DNA of 64,000 nt, taken from Octopus vulgaris (Eukaryota). Location: contig OX597816.1 of assembly GCA_951406725.2 (NCBI GenBank), forward strand, positions 45,632,001 to 45,696,000. The letters are read 5' to 3'. Made by a program: the position numbers and the translations under genes. Below the pieces are notes generated by a model. That model saw only the letters and a list, made by a program, of their open reading frames with translations. It searched no databases and was not told where the DNA came from. Shown here piece after piece: positions 13,055 to 47,980 of the stretch (the first letter of the stretch is position 1; the number at the start of each line of letters is the position of its first letter).

Positions 13055-13442
13055 CTGCAAAAGAAAGAAAAAATTTAAAATAAATAAATAAATAAAATAG
13101 AATAATTCAAACTGTCGAAGATAAAACAATAACTATTAGAGTGCTATAATTCATAGGAAGAGAAAGAAAGTATGAGTGCATGTGTGTGTGCACATGCACA
13201 CAAAGACACACACACACATTAGCATCTGGCCTAGTGGTTAAGGTGTTGGACTCATGATTGTAAGACTGGGGTTTTCATTCTTGAACTGGGTGATGCATTG
13301 TGTTCCTGAACAAAAGTCTCATTTCATGTTGCTCCAGTTCACTCAGCTGGCAAAAGTGAGTAATTAAGTGATAGACTGACATCCCATCCAGGGGAAGAAT
13401 ATATACACAACAGAAACTGGTCTTATGAGTCTATATGGAGAG

Positions 13443-13960
13443 AGTGAGTGAGTGAATGAGTGAGTGAGGAGTGAGTGAGTGAGGAGTGAGTGAGTGAGGA
13501 GTGAGTGAGTGAGGAGTGAGTGAGGAGTGAGTGAGTGAGGAGTGAGTGAGTGAGTGAGGAGTGAGTGAGTGAGTGAGTGAGTGAGTGAGTGAGTGAGTGA
13601 GGAGTGAGTGAGTGAGGAGTGAGTGAGTGAGGAGTGAGTGAGTGAGTGAGTGAGTGAGTGAGTGAGGAGTGAGTGAGGAGTGAGTGAGTGAGGAGTGAGT
13701 GAGTGAGGAGTGAGTGAGTGAGGAGTGAGTGAGTGAGTGAGTGAGTGAGGAGTGAGGAGTGAGTGAGGAGTGAGTGAGTGAGTGAGTGAGTGAGTGAGTG
13801 AGTGAGTGAGTGAGTGAGTGAGTGAGTGAGGAGTGAGTGAGGAGTGAGTGAGGAGTGAGTGAGGAGTGAGTGAGGAGTGAGTGAGGAGTGAGTGAGGAGT
13901 GAGTGAGGAGTGAGTGAGTGAGTGAGTGAGTGAGTGAGTGAGTGAGTGAGTGAGTGAGTG
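13443..13960 (+). repeat. (GAGT)n/(GAG) compound microsatellite, ~520 bp
   Basis: Pure GAGT units punctuated by GAG; source of ORFs 13364..13999 and 13431..13985. Confidence 0.97.
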
Positions 13961-14267
13961 CGTGCGTGTGTATGTGTGTATGCACGTACTTTCTTTCACA
14001 ATTTCAATGTATGAGCATCCATTTTATCCAGCCAAGTGAATGATTTAGTCATTGAATTAGTCTGTAAAATGGTTGAATATTCCAGACATTTGAGGCAGAA
14101 GCACCATGACAATGTAACCAGACAAGAACTTTAAATTACAGGTACAGACCATTCAACATGCTTCTACAGTTTCAATCCACCCACTTACACTCACAAGGCT
14201 TGGGTCAACTGAGGGCTGAAGTAAAGATGTCTTGGTCAAGATGCCATACATAAAAAGCACTGGTGCT

Positions 14268-29423: not shown

Positions 29424-29438
29424 CACACATGCACAACC

Positions 29439-29793
29439 ATCCAAATTGAGGGAGTGGTGTAGGTAAAATCCAGACTACATGTTAGTTAGCAGATCTTCTG
29501 ATGTAGTAATGACTTCACCAAGGAGTGCTCAGCTATCTACTCACTGAACTAAAGATACCTTAATTATATGAAGATTACCTTGTTGTTAAGGAATCCTAAG
29601 TTAAAATCGTATCTTCAGCGAGTTAACTTGGGATTTCTTAACGGCAGTGTAGCCTTCATATAATTAAGGTATCTTCAGCCTGGTGAGTAGGTAGCTGTGT
29701 ACCCTTCATTATGTAATTATTACATCAGAGGATTTGCTAACTAGGAAACAAATGTAGCCTGCATTTTACCTGCTCCACTACCTTGATTTGGAT
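29439..29793. repeat. ~355 bp imperfect inverted repeat (fold-back)
   Basis: The arms pair end to end, e.g. aagataccttaattatatgaag / cttcatataattaaggtatctt. Confidence 0.9.
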
Positions 29794-30280
29794 TAGGATT
29801 TTTTTTATTATTATTATTAGTTTATTTTAAACATTTTAAAACAGACAGGTTTCTTATCATAAAACAGAGATTGGTATTGCCAGGGTTAAGGAAAACCATC
29901 AAAGTGCAAACGATTTTTTTCATTAACTCTAATTAGATTAAGATTAATCTCTTCTTTGCAAACTGATCTTAATCTTTTGTTTAATTAATGGAGTTTATTT
30001 ATTTATTTTTTTATGTTGTTAAAAATAGATATAGCAAAGCATAGGAATGTGGCTAAGAAGTTTGCTTGGAAATTGACAGACTTCTAAGTTGGATCATACT
30101 GTATGAAACCTGAGCAATAGTTTTCTACTATAGCTTCAGTACACATCAAGCCTTCTGAGTGAAATTGAGTTGTGGTGAAACCAATGCTAGATTCTACCAT
30201 TCTTGAAGGGTACCACTTAATCCTTCACTTGGTTCAACACCAATAGTCCTTATTTGACTACATATATATATATATATATA

Positions 30281-30459
30281 CTTTATTTAAAGCAGCAGAG
30301 AATTCAACAAAACCTGTTACTCTGAGGGAGTGGTGTAGGTAAAATCAGAGTAACAGGTTTTGTTGAATTTTCTGCTGCTTTAGATAAAGCATATTACTCT
30401 ACCACTGGTATTTGAGTACTCTTTTTTCCACCTTGTTTCACATTTATGTGTTTACTCCA

Positions 30460-30460
<1 letters not shown>
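30281..30460. mobile_element. Same palindromic family as 47758-47980, centre replaced by foreign sequence
   Basis: 45-bp arms 30281-30325 / 30345-30389, followed by a ~70 bp unpaired tail matching 47758-47830; (TA)n on both sides. Confidence 0.8.
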
Positions 30461-30512
<52 letters not shown>

Positions 30513-47743: not shown

Positions 47744-47757
47744 CACACACACACACA

Positions 47758-47975
47758 CTGGAGTAAACACATAAATGTGAAACAAGGTGGAAAAAAGAGT
47801 ACTCAAATACCAGAAGTAGAGTAATATGCTTTATTTAGCAGAAATTTAACAAAAGCTGTTACTCGGAGTTTCACGTTCCTGTTTGTCGGACAGTTTTTTT
47901 AAACAAAACTGTCCGACGAACGGGAACGTGAAACTCCGAGTAACATCTTTTATTAAATTTCTACTGCTTTTAAAT

Positions 47976-47980
<5 letters not shown>
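47758..47980. mobile_element. Palindromic Penelope-like remnant with two inverted minimal hammerhead-like motifs
   Basis: Inverted arms 47829-47897 / 47905-47978; homologous to 30281-30460 in the opposite orientation; flanked by (TA)n. Confidence 0.7.
47905..47951 (+). ncRNA. Minimal type I hammerhead ribozyme-like motif (core variant CCGACGA)
   Basis: aaaactgt-CCGACGA-acg(ggaa)cgt-GAAAC-tccga-GUA-acatctttt; the mirror copy on the minus strand (47897-47851) restores stem I ctgt/acag. Confidence 0.6.

What the first reader, a model, noticed from the sequence alone, without database searches (positions are those of the whole stretch)
30281..30389. Hairpin cassette whose loop matches an exact 24-mer ~880 bp upstream, replacing the ribozyme core
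Seen: this copy has the same arms as the 47.8 kb element, but the centre holding both hammerhead cores is gone. The 24-mer tgagggagtggtgtaggtaaaatc (30323-30346) is identical to 29447-29470, the left end of the neighbouring 355-bp fold-back. The junctions show microhomology (tgag on the left, aaa/tc on the right). Inference: most simply a cruciform break repaired by templated insertion (Pol theta-type end joining). More speculatively, it is a family of constant stems displaying captured, variable loops. The loop is also partly complementary to 29764-29786, so a loop-arm RNA interaction is possible.
Basis: partly seen in the sequence, partly recalled or inferred. Interest (0 to 1): 0.75.

Follow-up and report, generated by a model that had tools for sequence, protein, structure and literature searches.

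The report
Local DNA patched into retroelement junction
The hairpin is one copy of a common jumping-gene repeat whose tip holds 24 bases matching DNA 876 bases away, and four other copies in the same genome hold similar nearby matches, so it is likely a rare DNA-repair scar made while the element was being inserted, not a functional display loop.

Summary
30323-30346 equals 29447-29470, and this exact 24-mer occurs nowhere else in the 2.8-Gb genome. It carries letters private to the local donor, so it was copied locally. The cassette is one of hundreds of copies of a Penelope-like insertion: an inverted arm, a sense arm and a one-sided tail, set in (TA)n. Arms start at two fixed points and end at very variable depths. 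The 'missing centre' is therefore likely the join of two truncated cDNAs, not necessarily a deletion. Nearly all tips hold only family sequence. Of seven tips tested with about 15 or more foreign bases, five match a nearby donor: 24/24 at 876 bp, 22/23 at 701, 31/31 at 765, 59/59 at 469 (predicted before fetching) and 52/53 inverted at 5.4 kb. That is about 1% of copies, so a loop-display family is not supported. Best reading: microhomology-primed templated insertion during integration. A later hairpin break, or a jump by the element's own RT, is not excluded.

The parts
30281..30326 (-). Inverted (antisense) arm of the Penelope-like insertion; begins at the family's tail-less start point
30323..30346 (+). 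Locally templated patch: 18 non-family bases (30327-30344) plus 4-nt left and 2-nt right microhomology
30345..30389 (+). Sense arm, truncated just upstream of the GUA triplet (30350-30352) of the family's hammerhead-like motif; the core motif is absent
   Evidence: motif read by eye, no Rfam match
30390..30460 (+). One-sided tail of about 70 nt, between the family's two start points
30262..30280 (.). (TA)n target microsatellite, left
30461..30510 (.). (TA)n target microsatellite, right
29447..29470 (+). Donor of the patch, in the left arm of the neighbouring fold-back
29437..29797 (.). Old fold-back repeat of a different family (arms 75% alike); holds the donor and its mirror (about 29763-29786, 18 of 24)
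47757..47979 (-). Second copy of the cassette family with a longer, family-only centre

Best explanation
The 24 bases at the hairpin tip match flanking DNA 876 bp away and were likely copied by microhomology-primed DNA synthesis, most likely while the host joined the two cDNA ends of a Penelope-like insertion. Shown: the match, its uniqueness, the junction microhomology, the two-arm-plus-tail layout in (TA)n, and four more loci with the same signature. Inferred steps: (1) a Penelope-type endonuclease/RT cut the (TA)n and primed cDNA from both ends, at the two start points. (2) Both cDNAs stopped early, here before the ribozyme core. (3) Resection exposed at least 0.9 kb of the left flank as single strand. 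(4) The right end's 3' terminus paired with the 2-nt (interrupted, longer) microhomology at the donor and copied about 20 nt. (5) It let go and re-paired with the left end at the 4-nt microhomology, and the gap was filled. The likeliest polymerase is a host Pol-theta-type enzyme; this is untested. The loop is a neutral scar.
For: The exact 24-mer occurs only at loop and donor among 30 matches with up to 2 mismatches. Five of seven tested foreign tips have a local donor: window 24/24 at -876; L087 22/23 at +701; L088 31/31 at +765; L150 52/53 inverted at 5.4 kb; C22:44659273 59/59 at -469, predicted before fetching. Control: among 142 held copies (enriched for candidates) the best own-flank matches within 1.4 kb reach 58, 31, 24 and 16 nt, while 1704 swapped-flank trials never exceed 17 nt (5 reach 16-17). 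Twin-arm origin: in the 30 loci nearly all arms start at one of two points of a natural long copy (about 972 or 1043) and end at very different depths (329 vs 22, 958 vs 172, 158 vs 69 nt). Arm junctions overlap by 0-10 nt, and 9 of the 30 loci show no adjacent inverted arm. A purified Penelope-like protein cuts and extends both strands and starts at two sites that bound the tail (PMC11167929). Templates from near the integration site were seen in three L1-made insertions (PMC11702581). Donors within 0-2 kb of a break track resection length in human cells (bioRxiv 10.1101/2022.09.30.509517).
Against: Timing is not resolved: arm-arm mismatches (7 of 241) and insert-donor mismatches (2 of 190) do not differ significantly (Fisher p 0.31), and the point estimate leans to a later event. 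Typical Pol-theta templates lie within 20 bp of the junction and span under 10 bp (PMC11541566), unlike these 23-59-nt patches from 0.47-5.4 kb away. Two tested foreign tips lack a clear donor: L152 has none in 30 kb; L151 has 14/15 at 313 bp, E 0.033 in 10 kb, and no match at E 0.01 in 30 kb. Exact microhomology is only 0-1 nt at the C22 junctions. No RT-endonuclease ORF was tied to this family.
Confidence: 0.5

Rival explanations
1. The element first inserted with a longer near-perfect hairpin. Later the hairpin or cruciform was cut at its tip, the centre was lost, and end joining copied the 24-mer from the resected flank.
For: Palindromes are break-prone and are stabilised by small central changes (review PMC8701086, passages). 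Many tips are perfect palindromes or recurrent microhomology joins. Insert-donor divergence (1.1%) is lower than arm-arm divergence (2.9%), though not significantly.
Against: Very unequal arms and single-arm copies show that the tip is already a variable junction at integration, so no deletion need be assumed. The copy with identical arms (C22, 53/53) already has its patch. Arms with the most mismatches are also among those with a mismatched patch, as expected for equal age (n=5, weak).
Confidence: 0.27
2. The element's own reverse transcriptase fell off the RNA, jumped onto exposed flanking DNA (or a nascent transcript of the flank), copied a short stretch and then bridged to the other cDNA.
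For: Penelope-like RTs are related to telomerase RTs (PMC8557442). The L1 study links templated genomic insertions to ORF2p acting on DNA templates and leaves host versus element contributions open. Patch length and donor distance lie outside the usual Pol-theta range. Exact microhomology is minimal at C22.
Against: Microhomology on both sides (4+2 in the window, 4+2 in L150) is the priming-plus-resolving pattern of host end joining. No data here show DNA-templated jumps by a Penelope-like RT.
Confidence: 0.16
3. Assembly or sequencing artefact at a hard-to-read palindrome.
For: Palindromes trouble some sequencing methods. All five cases come from one assembly.
Against: Five loci on five different contigs show the same signature in both orientations. 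Two patches differ from their donors by one base, which suggests elapsed time. The patch picks the farther 24/24 arm over the nearer 18/24 arm.
Confidence: 0.05
4. A functional family of constant stems that capture and display variable loops, with loop-arm RNA pairing.
For: The stem is stable, and foreign loops recur at five loci.
Against: Only 3 of 357 unfiltered tips carry a locally matched foreign loop (read by eye). Each patch seen occurs once, cut points and lengths vary with no fixed capture site, and the loop-arm complementarity follows from the donor's fold-back.
Confidence: 0.02

Closest known systems
Endonuclease-positive Penelope-like element insertions with an inverted 5'-truncated copy and one-sided tail (PMC8557442, passages; PMC11167929, parts 1-2 of 4)
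   Same: Inverted truncated arm next to a sense arm, tail at one end only, two fixed start points, (TA)n targets, hammerhead-like motif near the start points.
   Different: The tail is about 70 nt, not 30-40. No ORF was linked to this family. Locally copied genomic patches at the arm junction were not mentioned in the passages read.
Templated insertions of polymerase-theta-mediated end joining (PMC11541566, passages)
   Same: Copy of nearby DNA, direct (cross-junction) or inverted (foldback), flanked by priming and resolving microhomology of a few bases.
   Different: There, templates peak within 20 bp and span under 10 bp, and the search covered only 500 bp. Here they are 23-59 nt from 0.47-5.4 kb away. 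POLQ dependence is untested.
L1-made insertions with sequence templated from near the integration site (PMC11702581, passages; its Fig. S10 not seen)
   Same: Local genomic patch arising during retrotransposon integration; twin-primed inverted cDNAs joined by end joining.
   Different: Human cultured cells and L1, three cases. Here a Penelope-like family in an invertebrate genome, with the patch between two cDNA arms.
Class 1 insertions from resected ends, 0-2 kb from a break (bioRxiv 10.1101/2022.09.30.509517, passages); MMB-TI (PMC8421209, passages)
   Same: Donor distance in the resection range, with short microhomology.
   Different: Nuclease-induced breaks in human cells, often in trans between breaks. 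MMB-TI searches were limited to inverted templates within 100 bp.

Membership tests
Penelope-like element insertion (EN+) | Inverted 5'-truncated copy adjacent to the sense copy | tested here: met
   window cassette; 21 of the 30 loci (some are the two arms of one insertion) map an adjacent inverted arm
Penelope-like element insertion (EN+) | Tail at one end, bounded by two fixed RT start points | tested here: met
   most arms start near position 972 or 1043 of a natural long copy; the tail is about 70 nt against 30-40 nt reported
Penelope-like element insertion (EN+) | Insertion into (TA)n microsatellites | tested here: met
Penelope-like element insertion (EN+) | Hammerhead ribozyme in the terminal repeat | tested here: inconclusive
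   A canonical core word in one subfamily and a one-letter variant in the other, followed by GAAA and GUA, read by eye. No Rfam hammerhead match at gathering score or at E up to 5. Cleavage untested.
Penelope-like element insertion (EN+) | Contiguous ORF with RT and GIY-YIG endonuclease in the parent element | tested here: inconclusive
   L192 holds a frameshifted RT + GIY-YIG ORF (weak Pfam hits below cut-off), but (TA)n separates it from the cassette and its 3' region does not match the long family copies. The longest shared family stretch, about 960 nt, has no such ORF.
Polymerase-theta templated insertion | Inserted bases are a copy of nearby sequence | tested here: met
Polymerase-theta templated insertion | Priming and resolving microhomology of a few bases | tested here: met
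   Window 4+2 nt, L150 4+2 nt, about 2 nt on the left in L087 and L088; only 0-1 nt exact at C22
Polymerase-theta templated insertion | Template typically within 20 bp of the junction and under 10 bp long | tested here: not met
   Donors 469-5400 bp away, 23-59 nt, against PMC11541566. Short self-templated duplications of the arms also occur in the family (by eye).
Polymerase-theta templated insertion | Dependence on POLQ | not testable with these tools
   Needs a mutant or inhibitor assay
Non-LTR retrozyme | Tandem hammerhead-bearing monomers and circular RNA | tested here: not met
   This copy and the long copies L194/L195 show no tandem monomers; RNA not examined
Constant-stem, variable-loop display system | Most members carry foreign loops at a fixed capture site | tested here: not met
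   3 of 357 unfiltered tips; cut points vary

The most novel reading that the evidence does not exclude
Penelope-like integration itself includes a DNA-templated bridging step. After both cDNAs are made, one cDNA end, extended by the element's telomerase-like RT or by a host polymerase it relies on, samples flanking DNA exposed 0.5-5 kb away. Thousands of fixed copies would then record how far the target ends are resected in an invertebrate germline, with a preferred reach of roughly 0.5-0.9 kb.
Probability: 0.2. Interest if true: 0.65.

Novelty: new member of a known kind. Interest (0 to 1): 0.4.

Why it matters
How the two ends of a Penelope-like insertion are joined is stated as unresolved in the in vitro paper read here (PMC11167929). 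Fixed patches at the arm junction are a natural record of that step. They imply that a free 3' end, and probably 0.5-5 kb of exposed flank, existed at these sites. A genome-wide count in hairpin versus single-arm copies would separate integration from later palindrome breakage. The locus itself is very probably neutral, and the general phenomenon, templated insertion, is well known.

Tried and rejected
Independent reads, no verdict. One search listed 24 runs; five were laid, all as contigs (X18, X19, X1, X20; X18, X1, X4, X20). The unique flank 29721-30252 is held almost unchanged by X1, X18 and X19, and about 2% diverged by X20. No contig of the four runs covers 30330-30334. In one search no listed piece spans the loop, and the small depth of X19 in that bin equals a joint from another family copy. 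The tool warns that holes prove nothing (filtered records, skipped repeats, X18 read to 76%), so this neither confirms nor refutes the junction; a polymorphic insertion would look the same. The 24-mer as family consensus: rejected. Loop-arm RNA pairing as separate evidence: rejected. Rfam: no hit in the window at gathering score, and only generic hairpin (miRNA-type) hits below threshold on the 47.8-kb copy. Dating by divergence: inconclusive. Parent ORF: the Penelope-type ORF beside L182/L192 was not shown to be the parent. The k-mer classifiers were unreliable: one search missed L087, and one search missed the window, L087 and C22 through over-masking. One search, which has no threshold, replaced them for the 1.4-kb test, and it cannot see the 5.4-kb donor. 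The loop-versus-mirror count printed was out of register and is not used; 18 of 24 comes. Short odd tips (9 nt or less: L089-L093, L096, L108, L154-L157; and L094, L121) gave no match above the null and cannot be judged. Deep-junction copies: 50 of 206 seen, none foreign. No ORF of 170 aa or more in 20-50 kb. PMC10962320 was not held. The retrozyme preprint 10.64898/2026.07.22.740005 had no passage on hairpins or tails (word search only).

Full report
Observation. The 24-mer at 30323-30346 is identical to 29447-29470, 876 bp upstream, and does not extend further. It sits between arms 30281-30325 and 30345-30389, which pair at 43 of 45 positions. A one-sided tail of about 70 nt follows, and (TA)n lies on both sides. 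The 47.8-kb element is the same repeat on the other strand. In the 2.8-Gb genome G000 the left junction is unique. The 24-mer has 30 matches with up to two mismatches: two exact (loop and donor), one with one mismatch and 27 with two. The donor belongs to an old fold-back family (arms 75% alike; relatives), and the loop carries the letters private to this local copy. The partial complementarity to about 29763-29786 (18 of 24) is just the donor's mirror arm.

What the cassette is. Pattern searches found 236 copies with 4-34 nt between the inner arm motifs and 316 tailed copies with 35-58 nt; these are lower bounds. Longer relatives continue 5' for up to about 960 nt. Mapped on one natural long copy, nearly all arms start at one of two points about 70 nt apart. 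They end at independent depths: 329 vs 22, 958 vs 172, 200 vs 83, 158 vs 69 nt. Junction overlaps are 0-10 nt, and 9 of 30 loci show no adjacent inverted arm (some of the 30 are the two arms of one insertion). This matches the published layout of Penelope-like insertions: inverted 5'-truncated copy, one-sided tail, (TA)n bias (PMC8557442, passages). It also matches the biochemistry of a Penelope-like protein that cuts and extends both strands and starts at two sites bounding the tail (PMC11167929, parts 1-2 of 4). I infer that the tip is where two cDNAs were joined. A hammerhead-like motif lies in the sense arm by eye, but Rfam does not recognise it. An RT + GIY-YIG ORF lies beside one copy but was not shown to be the parent. 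The family therefore works like a non-autonomous or truncated Penelope-like element; membership rests on structure, not on a linked ORF. That the host looks like a cephalopod is recalled from its repeats and was not tested.

Unfiltered lists gave 358 rows (357 places) of 511 matches: 87 of 87, 100 of 108, 100 of 316 and 71 further rows. Read by eye, nearly all tips are family sequence only. Many end at self-complementary 4-6-mers, and a few are short self-templated duplications. Three have a long foreign centre: the window, L087 and L088. Searches filtered against family letters (71 and 9 rows; 65 rows, second subfamily) added L150, L151, L152 and C22:44659273. Fifty of 206 deep-junction copies added none. 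Donors: window 24/24 direct at -876; L087 22/23 direct at +701; L088 31/31 direct at +765; L150 52/53 inverted at about 5.4 kb; C22 59/59 direct at -469, predicted in a note before fetching. L151 has a borderline 14/15 match at 313 bp, and L152 has none in 30 kb. That makes five of seven. Donors lie on the tail side in two cases and on the other side in three. In a threshold-free control on 142 held copies (enriched for candidates), own-flank matches reached 58, 31, 24 and 16 nt, and 1704 swapped-flank trials never passed 17 nt. The rate in unfiltered lists is 3 of 357, about 1%. Each patch seen occurs once and cut points vary, so this is an occasional accident, not a display system.

Mechanism. 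Shown: local copying with short junction microhomology (4+2 nt in the window, 4+2 in L150, 0-1 exact at C22). Inferred: a free 3' end primed on flank DNA, copied 20-60 nt, let go and re-annealed to the opposite end. A direct copy fits priming across the junction onto the other end's resected strand, and an inverted copy fits fold-back on its own strand; these classes are named in PMC11541566 (passages). That paper finds Pol-theta templates mostly within 20 bp and under 10 bp long, so these patches lie outside the usual range. In this family, however, templates that close would be the arms themselves and would appear as the self-duplications seen. Donors 0-2 kb from a break that track resection length are reported in human cells (bioRxiv 10.1101/2022.09.30.509517, passages). 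Three L1-made insertions carried locally templated DNA (PMC11702581, passages; supplement not seen). I favour integration as the moment (0.5 with a host polymerase, 0.16 with the element's RT), because the tip must be joined then anyway. A later hairpin break (0.27; palindrome instability in review PMC8701086, passages) is not excluded. Divergence does not decide it: 7 of 241 arm mismatches against 2 of 190 patch mismatches, p 0.31. An artefact (0.05) is unlikely given five contigs and two slightly aged patches, but all come from one assembly.

Novelty. Templated insertion is a known class, and it is known at L1 integration sites. Eight full-text searches listed no title or abstract on local patches at Penelope-like arm junctions; one search returned none, and most subscription papers are not held. 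Earlier notes of this scan describe twin-armed Penelope-type insertions elsewhere in this genome, which agrees with the reading I had already written down. None of the 16 notes shown mentions locally copied tips, and a look-up by sequence found nothing. Verdict: a real, recurrent repair scar; a new member of a known kind, with a useful handle on how Penelope-like ends are joined; interest 0.4.

Noticed in passing
window 29437-29797; relatives L004-L011: The donor's fold-back is an old copy of a second, unrelated hairpin family (L004 is a full hairpin about 73% alike); it may be another Penelope-type twin-arm insertion.
   Followed up: partly
L192:3336-7111 (G000:C4:19.876-19.880 Mb): [quoted passage not shown] Related ORF ends lie within a few kb of other cassettes (L013, L017, L062, L089, L091, L193), probably through the shared (TA)n target.
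   Followed up: partly
lists: Many tips recur identically on different contigs and end at self-complementary 4-6-mers: either repeated joining at the same microhomology or re-copying of whole hairpins.
   Followed up: no
e.g. C6:35445582, C7:68122740, C19:60934627, C24:12837914, C16:787238: Tips with duplications templated from the element's own arms; roughly 20 by eye, more common than flank-derived patches.
   Followed up: no
L196 / G000:C22:44659273-44659382: The 59-nt patch begins with 8 bases identical to the element's own arm motif, which hints at a two-step template switch.
   Followed up: no
L199 / G000:C26:22703777-22703870: Both arms carry clustered changes at the same few positions of the ribozyme-like motif while the rest is near intact.
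   Followed up: no
L204 / G000:C9:100315993-100316116: The tip holds a run of about 27 A.
   Followed up: no
G000:C6:8898157-8898274 and C1:144580220-144580269: Left and right arms carry different subfamily letters, as if copied from two different RNAs.
   Followed up: no
G000:C20:70236835-70236951; C21:21725, C35, C36, C44: One copy has the tail on both sides. A set of near-identical copies on small contigs suggests segmental duplication.
   Followed up: no
window 13411-13990; 17200, 23270, 25656, 39021, 59004 and others: A GAGT-type satellite and many copies of SINE-like repeats of about 200-300 nt.
   Followed up: no
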